NCBI GenBank assembly: GCA_000165425.1
Contig: CT867994.1
Location: 62,001-126,000, forward strand
Source of the DNA: Paramecium tetraurelia
Lineage: Eukaryota
DNA: 64,000 nucleotides
Direction of reading: 5' to 3'
Position numbers and translations under genes: made by a program. Shown in pieces: positions 23,216-39,080 of the stretch. Positions within the stretch are counted from its first letter, which is position 1. Each line of letters begins with the position of its first letter. The notes below the pieces were generated by a model. It was not told the DNA's origin. It ran no database searches and worked only from the letters and a program-made list of their open reading frames with translations.

Positions 23216-26200
23216 ATGGGTATCTGTTCTAATCGACAGAAAGAAAATTTACATACAGACTTTGATAACATTCCTTTGTTAACGAGAGGTGAACTTGGAT
23301 TTGATATAATTGTCGAAAATATAAAAGTAAAAATGGATGATATAGTATAATTTTCATTAATCATTTTAAGTAAAGTTGCAAAGTGAAAGTGATTATTTCG
23401 AATTATTCAACCTTTGAGACTGAAATTGAGACTGAAATTTCAGGATAATTTTATGTAATTTATTGATAAACTTTAGTTTAAACATATTCACAAGGTTTAA
23501 TTGAAAACTACTGAGGAATAACTAAAATAACAATTTGTTATTGTGGAACTTAAGAGTGACAAGGATGAGTAGATTTCATCGTTTAATCTGAACTTGTATT
23601 AGATCGCTACAGGTCCATTTCATTTTGATTACGAATTCTCTTAATAAGGAAATAAAAAACTCGGAAAAGTGAGTTTTGATTTTAGAATGGCACAAATTCT
23701 TATTGTTAGATTTATTCCAAAACTCATTGATTTCAACATGGAGGAACTCTTAAATAAACACGAGTATTGTTTCTAATTGAGGATGCTGACATCACAATTA
23801 CAATTTCATTCTGAATACTCACCTGTCTTTCAAAATCAATTATTCTATAAATCACAATAAATATAATCCAATAAATAAATATTATGGAAAGATTCAAAAG
23901 TTGAAATGGAAGTGGAAGTACCTTTAATTGAAATAACATCTTCCTCTATTCAAATTGCTTTGTGTCATATTACAAAGGATGGCAAAAAAGAAATAGAATG
24001 TGAGGCATACGTTAATTTAAATTACGCATTAAATTAAAAAGCTGAATGCGTAATTATTAACATATATTTTAGATTGTGGATAAGGGCATTAAATGTTATA
24101 AGATAGACTGGAAACAAAACAATAGAAGAGTATGGAACCATGGGGTCTTAGAAGGAGTGCTTAATTATCATCTAGAAATCATTCTGCCATTTCATCTAAA
24201 ATAGCAAATCGTTGGAGTTCGTACTGATAAAGGAGTATCCTAAGGAACTAGAGTGATCAATTAAGCCAAAGCAAGTATAAGGGAGATTCAACAATTAAGT
24301 TCTGCTGGATAAGGTTTATTAGATACTTAATACATTATTTTTAGTAAAGTAAATAAATTATTAATTGTTTTAATAGGCTGAGCCTGACTCAGAATTGATA
24401 CAATAATAGAATGATTTTATCATTCAGATCATTGAAAACTTAAAGTTAAGTCACAAACAATCTATGATCTGTTTTGAATACAAAACTCAATAGGATCTCT
24501 TTAATTCTTAAAAACTATTAATTGATTTAGCAATTAAATTATTGGAAACTGCAGATTAATAATAAGAGCTATTAAGGGAATAATACTATACAATACTTAA
24601 ATTAATATTGAATAGAGGAGAACTCAGTTTGGCTTAGCTAGGATTTTCGGATTAAACACAAAAAACAAATGACAAGTTAATAAAGTTCAAAATGGAAATT
24701 GGTTTAAATTATTAGATCTTTTTATAAAAAGGTTTATCAATAACATTAGAAAAGTTGAAATAAAGGTCATTGGCACAAAATGAAAGATTCTTTGTTGAAA
24801 ACTTCTTAGCAAATGCATATTTTAGAATACCAGAATTAAGAAATACAATAATTGTTAGTGTTTCAAGACCAAATGATGAATAAATTCCAGAATGGAGATC
24901 TTTAACTAAGTCAAGTGGAGGGATTTCTAATTAAGAATTTAATGATATTTTTGATTGGAATAAGCATTTTTATGAGTATCTAATGAAAGAACCTAAATAT
25001 TATGGCAATAATCATAAAATGAATGAAATTATCAATTAACCATTGTGGTAAAAACAATTAGGAAAAAGAGGAAGCGTTTTCTTTTTATTTATAAAAGAAT
25101 GGTGTGATTTGTTAAATACTTATATAGTTAATAGTAAAAATGTTCCATATCACTAATTACCTGGATATTTTCAACTGATAAAGGCATTTTTCTCAGAATT
25201 AAAGTCAAGAGAAATATGCAATTACCCAGAAGCACTTAAAATAGCTTTATGTTCTTTGCTTAAAAACACCAATTTGTTAAATACAATAATAATAATCTTA
25301 TTCAACAAAGTTAGTTTATACAACTCTGATGATGTAATTCATTGTTTAGATCTATTAAATAAATGTTTTTAAAAGATAAGCCAATTCAACTTATGTATGC
25401 CATCATTCTTGGATCAAAAATACTTTTTAAATGGAATTAAAGTTATCCTTACTTAGTGTGAGCACGCATAAAGCATAGCAAAATGCTTAGAATTGATCTA
25501 CACCAACTACATATTATTTCCAGGTATATTTTAATCAAAAATATCTTTAGTGGATCTCAAGAAAGAATTAACTGACATGATATTTGAAAACCTAGCAATC
25601 AAATTTTTCATTCATTGGTCTTATAACGTCAGATTAATATTTCGTTAGTTTTTGATTTATCGCATATTTCATTTGCATAAGCCTCTTAAAGATAGAGAAT
25701 TAAATGAAGAGTATAAAATTAAGTTATTTTAGAGATCTAATTGAAAAATATTAAGAGTAATTGAAACCAAAGAAATAACACAGTTATTTTGACTAAAGAA
25801 ACTCTTCCAAATAGATTATAGTATATATTATAATTAAACTAATAGTCTTAATATATTTACTTAAAGTACATTAGATTTATGTAACAAATAGAAGAAGGCA
25901 AACATTTATCCAAATTTAAATCAAGTCATTTTATATTGGTCACTCTTAATAGAGTTGAAGAACTAAAATACAAGCTTAAGAAGCTGTAGTCAAAAGTTTA
26001 GAATAGATAAAAAGATGATAGTTTTGTTTAACATTCTTTTAAAATTATCTCTAATGATTAACTTGATGATACAGCATTACCAATTCAAACAATAGAACAA
26101 AACTCAGAAAAACCTGTTTTCAATAAGGGGAGGTTGCCTTTATAAAAAATTACATTGACTGAAACTTAATTAAAATACTTGATTTAAGCCTGCTCAGAAT

Positions 26201-26402
26201 ATGATGATTCCATCCTATAATATTAAAAATGGAGATAAACTAACATTCCTGATAACTATAATACTTTAACAGAAGAACGTAAGTTATATTATAATCTTTA
26301 GAAATATTAACTGTAATCGAATCTTTCGTCGTACCTGTTGTGAGAATTCTAGAAATTTAAGATTAAAATGAAGGAAATCTTATACAGAGAGATGACTGGT
26401 GA
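23216..26402 (+). CDS. N-acylated protein with C2-like region and DUF1765-like helical C-terminus
   Basis: Starts MGICS; beta-rich C2-like segments (LNLYQIATGPFHFDYE, GKVSFD); helical region with FLANAYFRIPELR and FFIHWSYNVRLIF; multiple introns; TGA at 26400-26402. Confidence 0.7.
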
Positions 26403-26405
26403 TAT

Positions 26406-29400
26406 TCAAATGATTTAATTCAATATGTTCAACATATTAACAGTTTCCAAGAATCTGTGATCCTCAATATTCCATTTGTTTTTAGGTTTGTTCTGCAAAG
26501 CCAATATTTGTTACTTTATTTAGTCTATGTTTTTCCGTTCAAATTTGACAGATTTCTATTCTTAGCCGTTCTTCCCAGATACTTTTTAATCTACATGTTA
26601 TTATATCTTGCTATAAATCTATAAACAGTATTATTAAACAAATTCACACTTAGGGGGATCTACTAAGTTTGGTGAATGATTTTAATATAATTATATAAAT
26701 TGATGTATGCTCTTATTCTTTTTTACAGTGTTTACATTATATCTAAATTAAATACAATATTTTATACAGATTTTCAAATATGAATCTACAGTTTATGATT
26801 GATACTGTTTTACTCCAACTGCATTAAATTTTAATCGGAATGTAATGTTATTTATTTAAAAAATTATACTAGATATAAATGAGGACTGTTACATCAATAT
26901 ATTGTATAAACTTATTGGACTTAAAATTATTACATTGTCCTGTCATAAAGATTTTATTAGACTCTGATATAAATAATGTGCCTCTATAAGATGCTGATAT
27001 AGATAAGACATTTTCATTCATAGGACTGATTAGGCATTAAGGAGAATTATAACATTTTTTATGTAACCCTAACTATCCGTATTTATTATTTCCGACTCCA
27101 AAGCACTTTTTAAAAGTTTTTAGTACTGCATGTGTCTAACCACATTCTATCCAAATCACGTTTTCAATTTATGCTTAACTTGGTGTATTCCTATCCTGAG
27201 TTAATTTTCATATTTACATTGTAATCTCCCAAACCCAATTACCCATACTTATTAGAACCGACTGACCACAATTACCCCTTTGTAAGATAGAGGATAAAAT
27301 TATGTCCACAGGATATTTAATCAATTGGCTTTTTAAATTCTAAAGTACTATTTCTTAATGCTTAATTTGTTGAATATATAAAACTATCAATACTATTATC
27401 TTTATATCCAAACATGTGATTACTCTTAATATACATAGATGAATAATTAGAAGCCATATTTTGCTTAGCTTATTTCTCATCAAGGCTTAAACAATTCCAT
27501 TTATCATTTTAATAAATTGCTAAATTCTCACCTGATTAAAAATACTTTACATTGCTCTAAATTAATACATCATCAATCAATCCCCATTGATACACTTTGC
27601 CTACTGCATCAACCGCAAAGGTCTAGGTCTCAGAAACCTCCAAGAATTATATTGGTTTATTTTTATGAAAACATTATGACCAATATAAACTGTAATTTTA
27701 TAGCCAACCAAAGCAAACGTCTGTCAAATCAACCAAAAATTCTAGATTAAGAATTATTTAAAATATCCTAATCTTTTAATCATCAAACTATTAATTTAGT
27801 AATTTTTCGTAATCTAATAAATTTTTATTATTATTTTTTAAGAATTCATTGAGTTAGATTGTCTCCTTTTTCTCAAAGTTTAAAAATTCTTTATGTTTCA
27901 CTAAGGACTTAAGAATAATTGGTTTAAATTGTCTTTAAATAAATATAATTTAATTCTTGACCTTCAAGTAGTTTTTTCTAGTTTTTAACATTCTCCATTA
28001 ACTTTAAACCGATATGATCTTATTTAATTATTAGTTATAATATTTTTGACACAAATATTTCCTAATGTTTTTTTAGATAAAAATTGTTTTTTTTAATTTT
28101 ATGAATTCAATCATTTTTTGTTTGACTTGACTTATTATTTCATTATTTTAAGATCTAATTTTATTGCCTCTAAAAATCTTTTATAATTTAATTGCCATCA
28201 AATTTTCAACTTTAACCCATACTGAATCAATTACAGATCTCAAAATCGACCTTGCAAACATCTATTTCTTAAATGCCTGCTTTTATAAATATTTCCTCAC
28301 TGAGTATTAGATGAATTATATATCTTAAATCACATGATTCCATTATAAAATCGCCCCAGTTTTTGTTATAGCTTATTATAATTAAACGATAGCATTCATA
28401 ATCTTTATTTTTCTAATCTTGGGTTTTAATTTTTTTCTTAAAATGTATGAACGATAGTTTTTCTTCAATAATTTCTTGAAATTGATAAATTTGGTAACAC
28501 AATTGTCGTTGATAGTCTCAATTTTTAATTATTACTCCAATGTAAGAAAGAGCAGATTATTAGCACTAACAAGATGATCAATTTAATAAATCTTCTTTTA
28601 GCAATAGGATAACTTTTCTTATAAAGTAAATTAAGGAGGAACAAAATAGATTTAATTTATTGTATCTACAAAATCTTATACTTCATATCTATAAGGGTAG
28701 ATTTAATAATAATAATTTAGATAGTTTTGAATATTGTACTATTCTAGTTATTTGAGAATATCTTAATAATTTTAATTTTTCATTTGATGAACCATAATCT
28801 GATTACACTTTTCTTATTCCTCATTAATTTTGGTCATGTAATTCTGATATTATTCAATGTTGGTTTTATATTACACATTTAATGTTTGAGCATTTGAAGA
28901 AATTACTTAATCTTTTGAACTTTAAATGAATTCTGCAACTTTTGATAAAGATTCAAATTTATTTTATACTTTAAACTCAGCAACACTATAATTAATCTAG
29001 CCATATGAATGGTTGATTGTAAACAGTTGTGGATTCTATGGTTAAATTTTCATCTATTTAACATATGTTCTCTAAAGAGATTTAATCTTTTCGATAAGTT
29101 TCCCTTCCTCTGTATTAGTCAGAGTATGCTCCTCAATCATTCCAATTAAACCAACAGTCTTTTTATCAAAAAGCTCTATGATTTACAGATTTGTCGTTAG
29201 AGTAATTTGAGCAAATTGAATTTAGACTTCCTTCAAATCTCGTTCCCTTTCGATTTTAATTCGATTATAAAATTAGTAATTGAGTTTTTCAATGGAATAA
29301 TTTTCAATTAATGCTTCTAAGTTAGTTTGAATTGTATTGAATGAAGAATAAAACAATAAACTAATAAAGGTTTAAGTATCATTATTATTCACTTAGTTCG

Positions 29401-30307
29401 TATTAAAGGTGATCTGCCTGGCTAGATAATATAAGAAGGTAGAAATTTAATCTTTGATTATTTCCATTTCTTATTGATTCATTTATTATTCAATAAATTT
29501 GTTCCCCATTTTTCTCTTTTTGATAGTCAATTCTGTGCATAATGATTAAGCACCTAAATCAAGGTTGGATTCAATTTTATTGATTAATTCTGATTGCTGT
29601 TGGAGTTGATCGAATTTAATCATTTGAAGCAGTAATATAGAGGAGAATAATTTGGATAGAAGTTAGAAGGTTGAAATCTGATTAATTGATTTTAAAAGAT
29701 CCTATAAAATGTAATTGTTGTATTCTTCAATTTACTAAAAGGGATATTAATATTAAGTTTAGGTATTTGAATTGGTTATATAGTTATTATTTTCATTTGT
29801 AAGTTAATTATAAAATAAATTCAAAATAGGAAATTTAAAATTTTTAGCAAAAATTCGATTTGAAATATTAAAATATTTATACTGAAAACAGTTGTTATTA
29901 AAAATGGTAATTAAGTTGTTATCATTTGAATTAAATTTGAAAAGTTCATTCAAAATAATTAAACTCTATAATAATTTAGATTATTTATGATCGATTTATT
30001 CTATTAGATGATTAAATGAGAGAATATTTGAATTTGAAATTTGAAAGCAGTAACTTTCATTGCAATTAAATTAAAATTAAATGGCTGAATTGTTTACCAT
30101 TAGGAATAAGCAGTCGTTGATATTGACTGATTTGTTGTTTAGCAATTAGTGTATAATCTGATGTATGTTGGTGTTAGGTATGGTATTGTCAATGATTGAA
30201 TTGGTCAAAACAATTTAACCATCATCCAATTGGACCTTGTCTTTGGCTACAAGGATGCCAGGTTGATAATTGTCTTTGAGTTGAACAAGCACTTTTTAAT
30301 TAATCAT
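26406..30307 (-). CDS. Myosin-like protein: degenerate motor domain + IQ motifs + RCC1/ATS1-like tail
   Basis: Code-6 ORF from ATG 30307. Myosin-head homology blocks (KLFSSILLLQMIKF; ELTIKKRKMG; NLEALIENYSIEKLNYQF; NLQIIELFDKKTVGLIGMIEE; FTINHSYGQINYSV), IQ motifs (IKLQKIFRGNKIR), RCC1 repeats (WSVGSNKYGQLGLG; GVGNNKYGQLGL). Confidence 0.85.
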
Positions 30308-30344
30308 TAATTTTAATATCTTGAGCGATTAAATAAATTAAATT

Positions 30345-31572
30345 ATGAGTGCATTTTCGGAGGAACATAATAGGTAAAGGAATTTAAATATCATAATTTA
30401 AAGGGATAATTCAAATGAGCCCCCGAGGAAATAGGAGAACAACAAGAAAGTTCACGAGTATCCAGAGGATTGGCCTATGAATCCGTCGCCAAGATTTACT
30501 CCTATGCAATATTCGTAATTGTTTCCTCATATTCCTCCTCCCTTGGATCTTGAAAACAAAGGTATTTCGGGAATTTAATGAGGTTTCAATGACTATGATC
30601 CCTAGAAATATCTCAATAGCGACAAAAAGGGCTAAAGCAGCTATGCATTTCGAAAACATTCATTGGGAGAAGTTCCGCAAATTGATCATATGGACGACGA
30701 CCCACATCGAAACCCGTATGCTTTCGGCTACTATCCAATGAAATACCCTCCATAACCTATGATGATGAAATACCCCCCTGGTCAACAGTTTATGGTCTCA
30801 CCGTGGTATCCACCCAGACCTCCTTAATAAATGATGCCTCCTTATTGTTACTATCCTCCTATGTATGATGGTCTTCAATGTCAGAATACTGTTTCAAAGG
30901 AACTTCAATCTAAAGTCTTTCAATTAGTCTCGTATCAAAAGGTTTCTGATTTTCAGTGTAATTGCAAAAAAAGTAAATGCCTCAAACTTTATTGTGAGTG
31001 TTTTGCCAATAATGGGGTATGATATAACTTCCTAAATTTTTACAACAAGGTGTGTTCACAGAGTTGTAATTGCCAAGATTGTAAAAATAGAATAGATAAT
31101 CCTCAAGAGAGATCAAAAGCAATCGAAGAAGCCTTGTTAAGAAACACTGATGCTTTTGTGCAATGTTTTTCAACCAAGGGAGGTGCCCAATTTGTTCAAT
31201 AAGGTATGTTAATCTCTCATCTCAGATAAACCACTTAAAGAACCATCGAAGGACAACTCCAGTGTCATTCGGAAAGGATGTAATTGCAAAAAGTCTGGAT
31301 GCAAAAAAAAGTATTGTGAATGCTACAGTCAAAATATCAGATGCAATGAACTTTGTAAATGTGAACATTGTTTAAATAAGACTGATGCTGAAATATAGGC
31401 TCAACAAGATCTAGGGCAAGAGGATCACAATAATTTGAGCAAAGGCAATCAAAAATAAAAAAAAGTAAAATTGGAGAAACATGAGGAAAGAAGCGATTCT
31501 CCTTTTGTTCAATTGGAAATCAATCTAAAGAAGAGCAATTTACATAAGGTGAAGAAACAAGAGAATAATTGA
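30345..31572 (+). CDS. Tesmin/TSO1/LIN54-like CRC (CXC) domain transcription regulator
   Basis: [19 protein letters not shown]...[12 protein letters not shown] and [36 protein letters not shown], linked by [16 protein letters not shown]. Confidence 0.93.
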
Positions 31573-31624
31573 ACCTATATATAATTCATTAATAATTATT
31601 ATAAATATCATCAAGAGTTCAAAG

Positions 31625-35665: not shown

Positions 35666-38600
35666 ATGAGCATAAAAAAAATATCAATACGAAACCTATT
35701 GTCATACAAAGCAATCGATTTAGAGTTAGGAGGCAATTTAAATATATTTGTGGGTAAGAATGGCAGTGGAAAGTCTAATTTTGTGAATGCATTGCTATTT
35801 GCATTAACAGATAAGTTTGGGAGTTTTGACAGGAAGATGATTGAAAATGTATGTATTTATAAACGAAAATATATTAAAGAATCTTATTTCAGATGAATAG
35901 CTGCCAATTTAGGTTTCCATCACTTTAGACAATGCAAATTAGAGATTGCCTTACAGCACTGAGGAAGTGACCATAATGAGACAAATGACTACAAAGGATG
36001 AGTTCTTTTTGAATGGAAAAGCTGCTACAGTCTCTCAGTTTAGTAATTTACTGCAATGTATTAATCTCTCCCGCTAAAATTATTACAATATTGTCAGACA
36101 AGGTAAGATAAGTAAGATTTCTTAAATGCGTGATGTTGAAGTGTTTGAGCTTTTAGAAGAAGTGAGTGGTGTGGCATTGTATGAGGAAAAGAAGCAAGAG
36201 ACAATGAATAATATAAAGTAAGCTTAATAAGAGAAAGAGGAGATAGTTAAAATTTTGAATGAGTTGGGTGCTTAAATTAAATAGTTGCATGATGAGAAGG
36301 AGGCCTTTAATTAATTGAAGGACATTTAGAAACAAATTTAATTACATGAAGTTTAGCTTTCACTAATTTCAGCTAAAAGCTTTTAACATTAATTGTTGGA
36401 TCTAAACACAGAGCAAAGCAGATTGCATAATCAATTGCAAAGTCTGATGTAATAGTAATAGGATTACAGCAATGCTTAATTCAAGGCAAATAAGGAGATA
36501 GAATTGTTTGATTAGTTTTTTAATGAAAATAAATAGAAAATATAAGAATTTGAAAAGGAGGAGTAGAATATGTTAAAACAATATTCAGATTTATCCATTC
36601 AATTGAATGAAGTTAGGGAAAGATTACACGCTTTAAAGAGTGTCAACAAATCAGCTATTGAAGAGGAGTTCAAAACAACTGAATAAAATCTTGACAAGGA
36701 AATGCTGAAAATCTAAGAATAACAAGTCAAAGTGGATAAATAAATTCAATATTTTTAAATCCTGTAAACTGATGATCCAGTTAAATGTTTCAAAGATGAA
36801 ATGCAATCTCTTACAAAACAGCTAGAAGGGTATCAGAAAGAATTTAAGAATGTTGAATTCAAAGTATCTCAAATTAACAAGGATTTGAATTAATTGAAAT
36901 AATAGAAATAGAATCAAATTAATGTTGGAGAAGTATAAGGCAACATCAAAAAAACAGAGGATAATCTATTGCAATTGAGAAAAAAACTGGAGTCTACTCA
37001 ACTAGATAATATGGAATTGTAAAAAACTAAAACACATTAACAACAGAAGTTATGTAAACTTTAGAATGAATAAGATATTGAGTGTAATCAACTTGATAAA
37101 TAATTGAGAGATATCTTCACTGCATCTATTATTAAAATTATGGAGTTCGCTGAAGAAAAAGGGTTGACTGTTTATGGAGTGTTCGCTTAATTAATGAATG
37201 TCAAATAGAAAAGGTTATTGCCTCTCATAGAAACTGCCAGTGGTCCTCGTTTATTTAGTCTAATTGTACCAGATACATAAACTGCTAAATAAATTATTGA
37301 TTTTAATAAAGACTAATAAGGATCAGTCTTGAGAATATACCCTCTTGATTTAATAGATGATAGAGTAACTCAATTCGATGCTCCAAAAGATACTATCAAT
37401 TTGTAAGATCAAGTCACCTTAAATGGGGATTTCGGCAAAAAAAAGTCTTTGATTGCTAAGGTCATTGGAAAATGGATTGCTGTTAAGGATTATCAGACTG
37501 CCTTAGACATTTCATCAAAGCACGAGATCAACTGCATCACTTAGGATAATGAAGTAGTCTATGCAGATAGTTTCTTAACTAAGGTAGGAGCAACAAGAGT
37601 TTAATAAAGCAAGACTATTTCATTACAAAAAATATTAGCAATGCATTAAGAAATTAAGATGTTGACTAAGTAGGATTAAGAGATGGAACAATAGATGGAA
37701 GAGGATTAAAATAAATTATTAGAAATTTAAAGAGAAATACAAAACAGTAAGAATAACTTAAACAATTTAATCTAATAATTATAATCTTAAGATACATCTG
37801 CTATAGAGAAAAAACAAAGAGAACTGGACGCACTTGAATAACTTGCAAAATAATTGGATATTCCTATTTAAGACACAAGTAATAGGATCAAGGATATTCA
37901 ATAAAAATTAAAAAATCCAAAACAGATTAAGAAAGGATTGACTGATGATGATATTAATACCTTATAGTAGTTGGTAAAAGAGAAATAACAATTATCCTAA
38001 TAAATTACAACTTTGATGAATAAGAAGAATGAAATTAAGATGAAATAGTAAAAGAAGGTTGATGTAAATAAGATTCAATAATTGGAGTAATAATAATCTG
38101 AACTAAAGTAATAAACAGACTAATTGAATATGTAATTAAAAGGAAAGCAGAAGTATCACTAAGAAATAATCGAAGTTTAGAATGAAAACAAAAAGAATTT
38201 GGCTCAAGCCTTAAAAGAAAGAGATAATGCTAAGTTAGAAAAGAGTAAAATAGATTTAAAAATTGATTCTATAAAAAATCAACAGACTGAGTTTGAGATG
38301 CAAGCTCAATAGTGTGTCAATTAATTAGAAACCATCGAAAAGGATAAAAGGTTGATTGATGCGTTCAGTGAATTAGATGAGCAATAATCTAAAAACTAAA
38401 TCATTAAGAAGATTAAAGAACTTAAGACTAAATTTAACCATAAATTTACTCAAAAACATTAAAGTTTATTTGAAAAATTAAATGAAATTGAAACAAGATT
38501 CTCAGATTACTAATAGAAACTATAAAATCTAAAGTAAATTTAATAAGATTTTGATAATCTTTGTGAAATTATGGACAAGAAGGCAGAAAGTCTATTATAG

Positions 38601-39080
38601 GATTAATTGTATAAAAGATTTGCTGAATACTTTAGACATTACTTTTTATAAATTGTAACTACTGGAGATTGTCAAATTAAGTTGATTAAAGGTTTAAGGA
38701 AGAACAATAAGAAAAATTGGGGAATCGACATTAAAGTTTCATTCAAAAATAAGGAAGTTTAGAATTGGACATCATTTTCAAGTGGAGAGAAAACAATAGT
38801 TGCCTTTGTCATTCTAATATCCTTGTAAAAATGCGATCCAGCTCCATTTTACATTTTAGATGAATTCGATGCTGCTCTTGATGACAATTACAGAAATCAA
38901 GTAGCTCAAATTATCTTGAATTTGTCAAAAGAATCTCAATACATTATTATTACATTTAGACCTGAACTCATCAGCTTAACTAGTGATTTAGTAACATTTT
39001 ACAAAGTATCACATCATAATTAGTAAAGTTCAGTCATCAAAACAACATAATAAGAAGCAAAGAAAATTCTCAAAGCATGA
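35666..39080 (+). CDS. SMC3: Cohesin subunit SMC3-like
   Basis: Walker A GKNGSGKSN, Q-loop YNIVRQGKI, LLEEVSGVALYEEKK, coiled coils, hinge (VYGVFAQL), C-terminal QKCDPAPFYILDEFDAALD and QYIIITFRPELI typical of SMC3. Confidence 0.88.

What the first reader, a model, noticed from the sequence alone, without database searches (positions are those of the whole stretch)
26406..30307. Motor-dead pseudomyosin with IQ neck and RCC1/ATS1 tail, invisible in the ORF track
Seen: an intact ~1,270-aa code-6 ORF whose first ~660 aa track the myosin head block by block: KLFSSILLLQMIKF (~RILAAILHLGNIEF), ELTIKKRKMG...KDQISTFLY (~ALTTRTI..G...RDALAKALY), NLEALIENYSIEKLNYQF (~NSFEQLCINYANEKLQQFF), NLQIIELFDKKTVGLIGMIEE (~NQ.CIDLIEKKP.GILSLLDE) and FTINHSYGQINYSV (~FTIKHYAG.V.Y). 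The nucleotide motifs are gone. The P-loop position reads CFQISNSNILSF instead of GESGAGKT (~30020-30060), there is no NxNSSRFG switch I, and switch II reads LFYSSFN instead of LDIYGFE (~29340-29370). IQ motifs (~28160-28325) and RCC1 repeats (~26930-27650) follow. Established: myosin-IQ-RCC1/ATS1 is the architecture of alveolate class XIV myosins such as Toxoplasma MyoH. Inference: the ATPase is dead while the frame and architecture are retained, so it may act as a static tether or scaffold (cortical microtubule/basal-body link) or as a regulator of active paralogues.
Basis: partly seen in the sequence, partly recalled or inferred. Interest (0 to 1): 0.85.

Follow-up and report, generated by a model that had tools for sequence, protein, structure and literature searches.

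The report
Conserved motor-dead myosin relative in Paramecium
This Paramecium gene encodes a protein descended from a myosin motor that has lost everything needed to bind ATP yet is kept intact in three species, so it probably works as a passive adaptor rather than an engine.

Summary
The gene is real. It lies on the minus strand at 26406-30307, has four exons and encodes 1276 aa under code 6. It is Paramecium tetraurelia GSPATT00028843001, which UniRef already names "Myosin motor domain-containing protein".

Residues 190-640 are a true but very divergent myosin head. Pfam PF00063 scores 50.4 bits on the head alone, my own profile scores 94 bits against 1.8 for the best shuffle, and Toxoplasma MyoA in the PDB matches at 1e-9.

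Switch II reads LLFYSSF instead of LDIFGFE. No P-loop or switch I can be aligned, and residues 31-251 contain no glycine.

IQ motifs and an RCC1 propeller follow. Neck and tail align end to end with a canonical motor-IQ-RCC1 myosin.

Orthologues exist in P. octaurelia (94% identity) and P. sonneborni (74%) with almost no indels. The reading frame is far better preserved than neutral drift allows. The unrecognisable region 36-189 is the least diverged domain.

Stranded RNA-seq shows weak sense-strand transcription.

The dead-motor reading is supported. The tether or scaffold function is inference.

Degenerate myosins are already in print, so this is a new member of a known kind.

The parts
26406..30307 (-). 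Whole gene from ATG to TGA, 4 exons, 1276 aa under code 6. It is P. tetraurelia GSPATT00028843001 / XP_001425206.1 / A0BGZ1.
   Evidence: The spliced model is 94.4% identical to the P. octaurelia protein P0162 (one 1-aa indel) and 74.3% identical to the P. sonneborni protein P0005.
27218..30307 (-). Exon 1, 1030 codons: head, neck, linker and first RCC1 blades.
   Evidence: It is open under code 6 with 0 TGA, against 24-41 TGA in each of the other five frames. No GTA..TAG intron candidate of 3n length lies inside it: 4 candidates were found and none is a multiple of 3.
27196..27217 (-). Intron 1, 22 nt, GT..AG.
   Evidence: Its removal joins the frames and reproduces ...LGLGDYN|DRNTPSQ..., as in the P0162 and P0005 models. 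Too few RNA reads cross it to confirm the joint.
26893..27195 (-). Exon 2, residues 1031-1131: RCC1 blades.
26869..26892 (-). Intron 2, 24 nt, GTA..TAG, in frame and without a stop.
   Evidence: It is removed in the P. octaurelia model (YID|YHFLNK) and retained as coding in the P. sonneborni model. It is not confirmed by reads.
26768..26868 (-). Exon 3, residues 1132 to about 1165: last RCC1-like blade.
26743..26767 (-). Intron 3, 25 nt, GTA..TAG.
   Evidence: Its removal gives ...FENLYNVNTVKK..., matching both orthologue models.
26406..26742 (-). Exon 4: conserved C-terminal extension (about residues 1166-1276) plus the TGA stop.
   Evidence: It aligns with the C-terminus of the canonical motor-IQ-RCC1 myosin P0013. 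Pfam gives only sub-threshold matches, best E 0.027, all below the curated cut-offs.
30203..30307 (-). Residues 1-35: weak relic of the myosin N-terminal SH3-like subdomain.
   Evidence: The block profile scores 6.3 bits on residues 13-33, and 0 of 500 shuffles reach that.
29741..30202 (-). Residues 36-189: the region standing where the P-loop, switch I and first part of the upper 50K domain should be. It is unrecognisable but strongly conserved.
   Evidence: No block beats shuffles and Pfam finds no family. None of the 58 highly conserved canonical columns of profile positions 1-285 is aligned. There is no glycine and no GK[ST]. It is the least diverged domain, at 3.9% against P. octaurelia and 23.4% against P. 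sonneborni.
28388..29740 (-). Residues 190-640: the recognisable myosin head. It covers the second half of the upper 50K domain, the CM-loop region, degenerate switch II, relay, lower 50K helix-loop-helix, the SH1/SH2 region and the converter.
   Evidence: Pfam PF00063 gives E 1.5e-13 and 50.4 bits on residues 191-526, matching profile positions 229-578 of 679. My own profile covers positions 286-761 of 765 at 86 bits. hhalign gives 99.66% probability. PDB 6due matches at 9.6e-10. A further 166 library proteins match at E<=0.001, and all 17 that I scanned are canonical myosins.
29336..29362 (-). Residues 316-324: degenerate switch II, SLLFYSSFN against G(i)LDIFGFE.
   Evidence: In the alignment to the profile of 63 canonical heads, the invariant D, I, G and E are replaced by F/T, Y, S/Q and N. 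Only L and F are kept.
27908..28480 (-). Residues 610-800: lever or neck with about 5-6 IQ-like motifs.
   Evidence: Pfam IQ hits appear. The strict pattern IQxxxRxxxxR occurs at residues 666, 708, 767 and 790, with looser ones at 610-623. One at about residue 742 I read by eye from the sequence. The P. octaurelia neck (from residue 654) aligns with the IQ neck of P0013.
27653..27907 (-). Residues 801-885: linker before the propeller.
   Evidence: Residues 831-905 are 88% identical to P. sonneborni. The linker aligns with the equivalent stretch of P0013.
26768..27652 (-). Residues 886 to about 1165: RCC1-like beta-propeller, spanning introns 1 and 2.
   Evidence: Pfam WD40_RLD, RCC1 and RCC1_2 all hit. 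The orthologue profile matches PDB UVR8 at 1.3e-23 and RPGR at 4e-20, with the best stretch at residues 995-1118.

Best explanation
This is a selectively maintained, catalytically dead descendant of an RCC1-tailed myosin: a pseudomyosin.

SHOWN
- Residues 190-640 are homologous to the myosin head from the mid upper-50K domain to the converter.
- Switch II has lost its invariant D, I, G and E.
- The neck, RCC1 propeller and C-terminal extension are collinear with those of a myosin whose motor is intact.
- The whole protein, including the unrecognisable segment, is conserved in three Paramecium aurelia species.
- The gene is transcribed at a low level from the sense strand.

INFERRED
- Without a Walker-type loop or switches it cannot bind or hydrolyse ATP, so it cannot step.
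- It most likely acts as a passive adaptor.
- The RCC1 tail with its C-terminal extension would take it to the same partner as its motor-competent relatives. In Toxoplasma MyoH that kind of tail anchors the protein to microtubules of the conoid.
- The IQ neck would bind calmodulin-like light chains.
- The remaining head would offer a nucleotide-insensitive binding surface, most plausibly for actin. The CM-loop region (KKRKMGNKFIEQQM) and the lower-50K helix-loop-helix region (ELFDKK.VGLIG.IEEHT) are kept nearly invariant.
For: HEAD HOMOLOGY
- Pfam PF00063 scores 50.4 bits (cut-off 33.3) on residues 191-526 when the head alone is scanned.
- My profile of 63 canonical heads scores 86 bits on residues 190-633, matching positions 286-761 of 765.
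- The shuffle control gives 94.2 bits against a maximum of 1.8 in 300 shuffles.
- hhalign gives 99.66% probability and E 3.4e-25.
- PDB TgMyoA 6due matches at E 9.6e-10 over residues 242-471.
- 167 library proteins match at E<=0.001. All 17 non-orthologous ones that I scanned of the 150 listed carry strong Myosin_head hits.

DEAD MOTOR
- No regex match for the P-loop, switch I or switch II, while nearly all full-length hits have all three.
- None of 58 conserved canonical columns is aligned in profile positions 1-285, against 28 of 65 kept in positions 286-761.
- No glycine between residues 31 and 251, and no GK[ST].

DESCENT FROM A COMPLETE RCC1-TAIL MYOSIN
- BLASTP of P0162 residues 654-1261 against P0013 residues 856-1560 gives E 1e-23.
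- The C-terminal extension hits only P0013 below E 0.4 among the session's stored proteins (E 1.5e-5).
- P0013 has an intact motor plus IQ and RCC1 domains.

SELECTION
- 94.4% and 74.3% identity with one and two indel sites respectively.
- Gapless alignment over the first 1113 residues against P. sonneborni.
- 0 TGA in 1030 codons, against 24-41 in each of the other frames.
- Random substitution down to 74.3% identity gave a mean of 7.2 premature stops, and 0 of 200 runs stayed open.
- Residues 36-189 are the least diverged domain.

TRANSCRIPTION
- In three stranded oligo-dT runs, about 40 reads (estimated from bin depths) lie inside the gene. All have the orientation expected for a minus-strand RNA, and none has the other orientation between 26547 and 30303.

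PRECEDENTS
- Drosophila myosin-18 neither binds ATP nor has ATPase activity, but binds actin in an ATP-insensitive way (abstract of PMC3122231).
- T. cruzi MyHd lacks the P-loop and localises to the cytopharynx (passages of PMC7300353).
- The ATS1/RCC1 domains of MyoH are needed for its localisation at the conoid (passages of PMC4711953).
Against: - Nothing here tests binding to actin, light chains or any tail partner. All functional steps are inference.
- The loop-2 region is short and not lysine-rich in the alignment. By my recollection of myosin biochemistry, that would weaken the initial electrostatic contact with actin.
- About 65-95 residues are missing upstream of residue 190, and I suspect they include core beta-strands after switch I. 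The head may therefore not fold like a myosin at all. No structure could be predicted.
- Expression is very low in the three runs laid. In run X21 the read density is roughly 2% of the CXC-domain neighbour and 10% of the DUF1765 neighbour.
- No splice joint of this gene was seen in reads.
- Only three aurelia-complex species have an orthologue in the protein collections. No copy from the whole-genome duplication and no relative outside the complex was found. The gene may therefore be young and dispensable.
- dN/dS could not be computed because no orthologue DNA was available.
Confidence: 0.55

Rival explanations
1. Light-chain sink or regulator. The head is only a folded plug and does not bind actin. 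The protein acts through its 5-6 IQ motifs, by holding or titrating calmodulin-like light chains shared with active myosins at the site chosen by the RCC1 tail.
For: The IQ neck is retained and aligns with that of a canonical relative. In Toxoplasma, over-expressed MyoH neck-tail is toxic, and the authors attribute this to titration of light chains (passages of PMC4711953). The loop-2 region is short and not basic.
Against: This would not explain why the head is as conserved as the neck. Divergence from P. sonneborni is 27.7% for residues 190-640 and 23.4% for residues 36-189, against 31.9% for the neck. Low expression fits poorly with a stoichiometric sink.
Confidence: 0.2
2. Neofunctionalised head. 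[quoted passage not shown]
For: Residues 36-189 are the slowest-evolving domain. Windows 101-175 keep 20-23 of 25 residues between P. tetraurelia and P. sonneborni. The segment matches nothing known.
Against: High conservation may only reflect packing against the rest of the head. The composition is strongly N/I/F-rich, as in much of the proteome. No family, motif or structure supports a new function. An ESM Atlas lead still pointed to myosin-head clusters for residues 1-215, but at a score of only 0.83, which is weak.
Confidence: 0.15
3. Decaying or recently dead pseudogene that happens still to be open and leaky in transcription.
For: Expression is very low. No duplicate or distant orthologue was found. 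The motor motifs are destroyed.
Against: The frame is open in three species with one or two indel sites. There are 0 TGA in 1030 codons, against 24-41 in each of the other frames. 0 of 200 neutral simulations stayed open at the observed divergence. 85% of aligned positions are BLOSUM-positive. Divergence is even across domains.
Confidence: 0.05
4. Gene-model artefact. An exon or alternative start carrying an intact P-loop has been missed.
For: An in-frame ATG lies 87 nt upstream, at 30394. The deposited P. tetraurelia model is wrong at its 3' end.
Against: Reads of the divergently transcribed plus-strand neighbour end at about 30404, so only about 100 nt lie upstream. All three species' models start at the same MINQ. 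Exon 1 has no in-frame intron candidate. Run X3 contigs are collinear, without gaps, over 27468-27848, 28792-29289, 29396-29612 and 29652-29808. No frame of the window holds another copy. The alignment with P. sonneborni is gapless through the region.
Confidence: 0.02

Closest known systems
RCC1/ATS1-tailed alveolate myosins: Toxoplasma MyoH (class XIVc), the unclassified P. tetraurelia myosins with IQ and RCC1 tails, and the unnamed protein P0013 found here
   Same: The order of parts is the same: head, several IQ motifs, RCC1 propeller. Neck, linker, propeller and C-terminal extension align end to end with P0013 (E 1e-23). MyoH has 8 IQ motifs and 3 ATS1/RCC1 domains, and its tail is needed for conoid anchoring (passages of PMC4711953). 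[quoted passage not shown]
   Different: Those proteins have intact P-loop, switch I and switch II (P0013; MyoH is described as keeping ATPase and actin-binding activity). This one has none of the three and a head shortened at its N-terminal side. Its motor domain cannot be placed in class XIV or any other class.
Trypanosoma cruzi MyHd, the 'myosin H-derived' pseudomyosin
   Same: It is a myosin-head-containing protein that lacks the conserved P-loop, is predicted to be non-functional as a motor, and is still retained and targeted to a defined cytoskeletal structure, the cytopharynx (passages of PMC7300353).
   Different: It comes from a different lineage and a different parent myosin. The passages I read do not describe an RCC1 tail for it. 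I did not compare the sequences, because MyHd was not fetched.
Myosin-18 (Drosophila Myo18)
   Same: Its highly divergent motor domain neither binds ATP nor has ATPase activity, yet binds actin in an ATP-insensitive way, and it is proposed to be an actin tether (abstract of PMC3122231). This is the working model adopted here.
   Different: By my recollection (not checked here), Myo18 keeps a full-length, recognisable motor domain with altered motifs, and has PDZ and coiled-coil parts. Here the whole P-loop and switch I region is unrecognisable and shortened, and the tail is an RCC1 propeller.
Degenerate myosins noted in the myosin census of Kollmar and Muehlhausen 2017
   Same: [quoted passage not shown] P. 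tetraurelia is in that paper's species list (supplement 1).
   Different: No per-gene table was readable, so I cannot tell whether this gene was in their set or how it was classed.

Membership tests
Myosin superfamily (Pfam PF00063 Myosin_head) | Significant match to the motor-domain profile | tested here: met
   The head alone scores 50.4 bits and E 1.5e-13, above the 33.3-bit cut-off, but only over profile positions 229-578 of 679. Full-length proteins give no hit, which I attribute to HMMER's filters. Searches agree with the head-alone result.
Myosin superfamily (active motor) | P-loop GESGAGKT (Walker A) | tested here: not met
   No regex match. No GK[ST] and no glycine between residues 31 and 251. 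The block profile for this region has no match in the real sequence.
Myosin superfamily (active motor) | Switch I NxNSSRFGK | tested here: not met
   No regex match. The block profile scores -7.2, and 332 of 500 shuffles score as high or higher. A look-alike, PILNLFYNQLTNENNN, at residues 160-175 is not significant.
Myosin superfamily (active motor) | Switch II DIxGFE | tested here: not met
   It aligns as LLFYSSFN. The invariant D, I, G and E are all replaced in both P. tetraurelia and P. sonneborni.
Myosin superfamily (fold) | Relay helix, lower-50K strand (FxIxHYAGxVxY), SH1/SH2 region and converter (GYPxR) | tested here: met
   These elements align collinearly: NLEALIENYSIEKLNYQF, FTINHSYGQINY and QIYPYRYE. 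28 of 65 highly conserved columns are kept. This is at sequence level only. No 3-D model was obtained.
Myosin superfamily (function) | ATP hydrolysis and ATP-sensitive actin binding | not testable with these tools
   This needs biochemistry on purified protein.
Class XIV myosins | Motor domain groups with class XIV in a phylogeny | tested here: inconclusive
   In a FastTree of 66 sequences and 436 columns, the three orthologues sit on a stem of 2.94 substitutions per site, against a median root-to-tip depth of 1.44. The support values of the enclosing nodes are 0.06 and 0.17. No named ciliate myosins were in the set.
RCC1-tailed myosins (MyoH-like architecture) | IQ neck followed by an RCC1/ATS1 propeller, homologous to that of motor-competent members | tested here: met
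   Pfam IQ, RCC1, RCC1_2 and WD40_RLD all hit. PDB UVR8 matches at 1.3e-23. Neck and tail are collinear with P0013.
Pseudogene | Frame disruptions, or a neutral pattern of change | tested here: not met
   The frame is open in three species. 0 of 200 neutral simulations stayed open. dN/dS itself was not computed because no orthologue DNA was available.

The most novel reading that the evidence does not exclude
[quoted passage not shown] It may be a new ligand- or partner-binding module sitting where the nucleotide pocket was. In that case a factor other than ATP would set the state of the relay, converter and IQ lever. The protein would be a myosin-derived switch or sensor rather than a mere relic, anchored by its RCC1 tail to a ciliate cortical or microtubular structure.
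Probability: 0.12. Interest if true: 0.75.

Novelty: new member of a known kind. Interest (0 to 1): 0.4.

Why it matters
Motor proteins that have lost catalysis but are kept by selection show which non-enzymatic jobs a motor fold can do, such as tethering, scaffolding or regulating active paralogues.

This case is unusually clean. The whole ATP-binding half of the head is gone or rewritten, while the actin-facing, lever and tail parts are kept. A tail-homologous relative with an intact motor exists for comparison. By my recollection, Paramecium allows RNAi by feeding and GFP tagging.

The finding also has a practical use. The deposited P. tetraurelia model is truncated at its 3' end. A routine full-length Pfam scan also misses the myosin domain.

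The finding does not open a new category. Degenerate myosins and a P-loop-less pseudomyosin are already in print.

Tried and rejected
STRUCTURE PREDICTION. No model, superposition or fold search was done.

WHOLE GENOME. None is held for this window, so I made no genome-wide search for paralogues or for a copy from the whole-genome duplication.

ORTHOLOGUE DNA FOR dN/dS. Two metagenome scans found no relative.

PROTEIN SEARCHES. The search among shorter proteins found none. The tail-region search found only the two orthologue clusters plus three unrelated RCC1 proteins. Longer proteins were not searched.

ORGANISM NAMES OF HITS. Cluster look-ups of 20 hit proteins gave almost no organism names, so the source of P0013 is unknown.

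RNA RUNS. No RNA holder was listed by the run index. The evidence on expression comes only from the reads I laid.

EXPRESSION TABLES. This gene's identifier was absent from the supplements held as text for PMC3091696 (3 files searched, 2 scanned PDFs unreadable) and PMC5485702 (1 file). ParameciumDB expression data, which I could not see, may bear on stage-specific expression.

LITERATURE. None of the papers searched holds any of the 4 identifiers of this gene.

EARLIER FINDINGS OF THIS SCAN. Nothing was returned.

ESM ATLAS. On residues 1-215 it gave only weak myosin-head leads, score 0.83.

REJECTED IDEAS.
- A relic of the P-loop at CFQISNSNILSF. hhalign places that peptide opposite the helix before the P-loop, but with near-zero confidence.
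- A repeat or low-complexity artefact. No tandem repeats were found.
- A second copy in the window. None was found.


Full report
WHAT IS THERE

Under the ciliate code (table 6) the minus strand between 30307 and 26406 carries a gene of four exons.
- Exon 1 runs from the ATG at 30307 to 27218 (1030 codons).
- Introns of 22, 24 and 25 nt lie at 27217-27196, 26892-26869 and 26767-26743.
- The spliced product is 1276 aa and ends at the TGA at 26408-26406.

The frame contains 89 TAA/TAG codons in the long open stretch, so it is closed under the standard code.

The first 1113 residues are identical to a deposited Paramecium tetraurelia protein: CAK57808.1 / XP_001425206.1 / GSPATT00028843001 / UniProt A0BGZ1. 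UniRef names it "Myosin motor domain-containing protein". That deposited model has 1122 aa and ends early through a different 3' splice.

Orthologue models agree with my exon structure.
- P. octaurelia (P0162, 1275 aa) is 94.4% identical, with one 1-aa indel.
- P. sonneborni (P0005, 1285 aa) is 74.3% identical. Its indels lie only at the position of intron 2 and at one 2-aa site.
- Intron 2 is spliced out in the P. octaurelia model and kept as coding in the P. sonneborni model.

IS THE HEAD A MYOSIN HEAD?

Yes, but only from about residue 190 onward.

A Pfam scan of the full-length proteins gives no Myosin_head hit. The head alone (residues 1-640) gives PF00063 at 50.4 bits and E 1.5e-13, above the 33.3-bit cut-off. 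It covers residues 191-526, matching profile positions 229-578 of 679. The full-length miss is therefore a filter effect, not absence.

Other evidence agrees.
- phmmer against PDB sequences finds Toxoplasma myosin A (6due, E 9.6e-10, residues 242-471) and many other motor domains.
- phmmer against 1.84 billion representative proteins finds 167 proteins at E<=0.001. Their best stretches lie mostly within residues 190-650.
- The 17 non-orthologous hits I scanned, of the 150 listed, all carry Myosin_head at 375-807 bits.
- A regex scan shows that nearly all full-length hits have the canonical P-loop, switch I and switch II.
- A profile I built from 63 canonical heads aligns residues 190-633 to positions 286-761 of 765 at 86 bits.
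- The same segment scores 94.2 bits against a maximum of 1.8 for 300 shuffles.
- hhalign gives 99.66% probability and E 3.4e-25.

WHAT IS MISSING?

Switch II aligns as LLFYSSFN against LDIFGFE. The invariant D, I, G and E are replaced in both P. tetraurelia and P. sonneborni.

Upstream of residue 190 nothing canonical can be aligned.
- None of the 58 columns that are at least 80% conserved in profile positions 1-285 is matched. In positions 286-761, 28 of 65 are kept.
- Block profiles for the DDL-to-NPF region, the P-loop region, switch I, the sheet after switch I, and ERNYHIFYQ score no better than shuffles.
- The N-terminus alone gets 0.34% hhalign probability and no Pfam family.
- Only residues 13-33 keep a weak signal of the SH3-like N-terminal subdomain, which 0 of 500 shuffles reach.

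The sequence shows directly that there is no glycine between residues 31 and 251, and no GK[ST] or Walker-A pattern anywhere in the protein. The same holds in the other two species. Canonical heads have a median of 6.4% glycine over the equivalent span.

Length bookkeeping between the two anchors suggests that about 65-95 residues are missing relative to P0013.

hhalign puts that peptide opposite the helix before the P-loop, at near-zero confidence.

An ESM Atlas look-up of residues 1-215 returned myosin-head clusters, but at a score of 0.83, which is only a lead.

NECK AND TAIL

IQ-like motifs run from about residue 610 to 800.
- The strict pattern occurs at residues 666, 708, 767 and 790, with looser ones at 610-623. 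One at about residue 742 I read by eye.
- Pfam IQ hits appear.

An RCC1-like propeller follows at about residues 886-1165.
- Pfam WD40_RLD, RCC1 and RCC1_2 hit it.
- The orthologue profile matches PDB UVR8 at 1.3e-23 and RPGR at 4e-20, best over residues 995-1118.

The most informative comparison is with P0013. This is an unnamed 1569-aa protein with an intact motor (685 bits; P-loop, switch I and switch II all present), IQ motifs and an RCC1 tail.
- BLASTP aligns P. octaurelia residues 654-1261 collinearly with P0013 residues 856-1560 at E 1e-23.
- The alignment runs through the neck, the linker before the propeller, the blades and the C-terminal extension.
- That extension hits only P0013 below E 0.4 among the session's stored proteins, at E 1.5e-5.

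The gene is therefore derived from a complete myosin of this tail type.

Its motor domain cannot be placed in a class. In a FastTree of 66 sequences the three orthologues sit on a stem of 2.94 substitutions per site, against a median depth of 1.44, with node supports of 0.06 and 0.17. No named ciliate myosins were available for that tree.

IS IT ALIVE AS A GENE?

- The alignment with P. sonneborni is gapless over the first 1113 residues, with 63-88% identity in every domain.
- Residues 36-189, the part that no longer looks like a myosin, are the least diverged domain: 3.9% against P. octaurelia and 23.4% against P. sonneborni. Windows 101-175 keep 20-23 of 25 residues.
- Exon 1 has 0 TGA in 1030 codons, while the five other frames have 24-41 each.
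- In a simple neutral simulation I applied composition-weighted random point substitutions, without indels, until identity fell to 74.3%. The mean was 7.2 premature TGA, and 0 of 200 runs stayed open. At the P. octaurelia level, 23 of 200 stayed open.
- dN/dS itself could not be computed, because two metagenome scans gave no orthologue DNA.

EXPRESSION

Three stranded oligo-dT RNA-seq runs of the same species label were laid on 25000-31600.
- Inside the gene (26547-30303) all reads have the first mate on the plus strand. The plus-strand neighbours show the opposite orientation, so these reads come from a minus-strand RNA.
- From the bin depths I estimate about 11, 15 and 14 reads in X21, X22 and X23, biased to the 3' part.
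- In X21 the read density is roughly 2% of the CXC-domain neighbour at 30.4-31.6 kb and about 10% of the DUF1765 neighbour.
- Too few reads cross the introns to list a joint.
- Run X3 (Logan contigs, RNA by guess only) has gap-free collinear pieces at 27468-27848, 28792-28982, 28973-29289, 29396-29612 and 29652-29808. Their depth is 2.8-5.6, against 122-132 for the neighbour.

Transcription is therefore real but weak under those conditions. Stage-specific expression could not be checked.

DISTRIBUTION

- The protein collections hold only the three aurelia-complex orthologues.
- No shorter fragments were found.
- No other cluster scores below 1e-13 in the representative library.
- No second P. 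tetraurelia copy was found.
- Longer proteins were not searched, and the genome itself was not available.

HOW IT MOST LIKELY WORKS

Shown: the phosphate-binding loop and both switches are absent or destroyed, while the relay, lower 50K domain, converter, lever and a tail homologous to that of a competent motor are kept under constraint.

Inferred:
- The protein cannot bind or hydrolyse ATP, so it cannot move.
- It acts as a passive adaptor.
- The tail takes it to the partner used by its motor-competent relatives. For MyoH the ATS1/RCC1 domains are needed for anchoring at the conoid microtubules (passages of PMC4711953).
- The IQ neck carries calmodulin-like light chains.
- The head provides a nucleotide-insensitive contact, most plausibly with actin. 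The CM-loop region and the helix-loop-helix region are nearly invariant among the three species.

Precedent for this mode exists.
- Drosophila myosin-18 neither binds ATP nor hydrolyses it, yet binds actin in an ATP-insensitive way (abstract of PMC3122231).
- T. cruzi MyHd lacks the P-loop and still localises to the cytopharynx (passages of PMC7300353).

Points against the actin part of the model:
- The loop-2 region is short and not basic.
- Core strands after switch I may be lost.
- No 3-D model was obtained.

The rivals are a light-chain sink, a neofunctionalised N-terminal module, a decaying pseudogene and a mis-modelled gene. They are weighed in their own sections. The last two are largely excluded.

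NOVELTY

The gene is already annotated with a myosin name. P. tetraurelia myosins with IQ and RCC1 tails were catalogued in 2007 and left unclassified (section 20 of PMC2375034). [quoted passage not shown] None of the papers in the searched library mentions this gene's identifiers, and my search for the term pseudomyosin and three related phrases found 4 papers, 3 of them listed.

I therefore rate it a new, well-documented member of a known kind: a conserved motor-dead myosin. Two details may be worth a specialist's time. The rewritten nucleotide-binding half is the best-conserved part of the protein. And a relative with a homologous tail and an intact motor exists for comparison.

Noticed in passing
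window 26406-27217 (3' end of the gene): The deposited P. tetraurelia protein model (1122 aa) ends in ...MTGQFYTIY through a different 3' splice. It lacks about 160 C-terminal residues that both orthologue models and my spliced model share. This looks like an annotation error.
   Followed up: yes
window 26869-26892: A 24-nt GTA..TAG stretch, in frame and without a stop, is treated as an intron in the P. octaurelia model but as coding in the P. sonneborni model. Reads were too few to decide for P. tetraurelia.
   Followed up: partly
whole protein (method note): hmmscan of the full-length proteins misses PF00063 entirely, while the head alone scores 50.4 bits. My own search reported a very large composition-bias term of about 49 bits. 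Routine domain annotation of N/Q/I/K-rich ciliate proteins may lose divergent domains in this way.
   Followed up: partly
window about 30404-31600, plus strand: A divergently transcribed neighbour encodes a protein with two Tesmin/TSO1-like CXC domains (PF03638). It is well expressed. A 33-nt GT..AG intron at 31016-31048 is confirmed by reads and a contig, and 22 letters are left out at 31202 in a contig. Only about 100 nt separate its read ends from the pseudomyosin ATG.
   Followed up: partly
window 30602: C is read as T in 5 of 11, 16 of 25 and 17 of 26 RNA reads in the three runs. This could be an allele, reads from a paralogue, or a strain difference. No DNA run of the same strain was checked.
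   Followed up: no
window 24365-25741, plus strand, and 35841-39077, plus strand: The other neighbours are a DUF1765 (PF08578) protein and an SMC-family protein with SMC_N and hinge domains. Neither is related to the finding.
   Followed up: no
P0013 (unnamed protein, 1569 aa): This canonical motor-IQ-RCC1 myosin shares with the Paramecium protein a conserved C-terminal extension after the propeller, ending in a W..ED..F-like motif. It may define an undescribed tail module of RCC1-tailed myosins. Its organism is unknown.
   Followed up: partly
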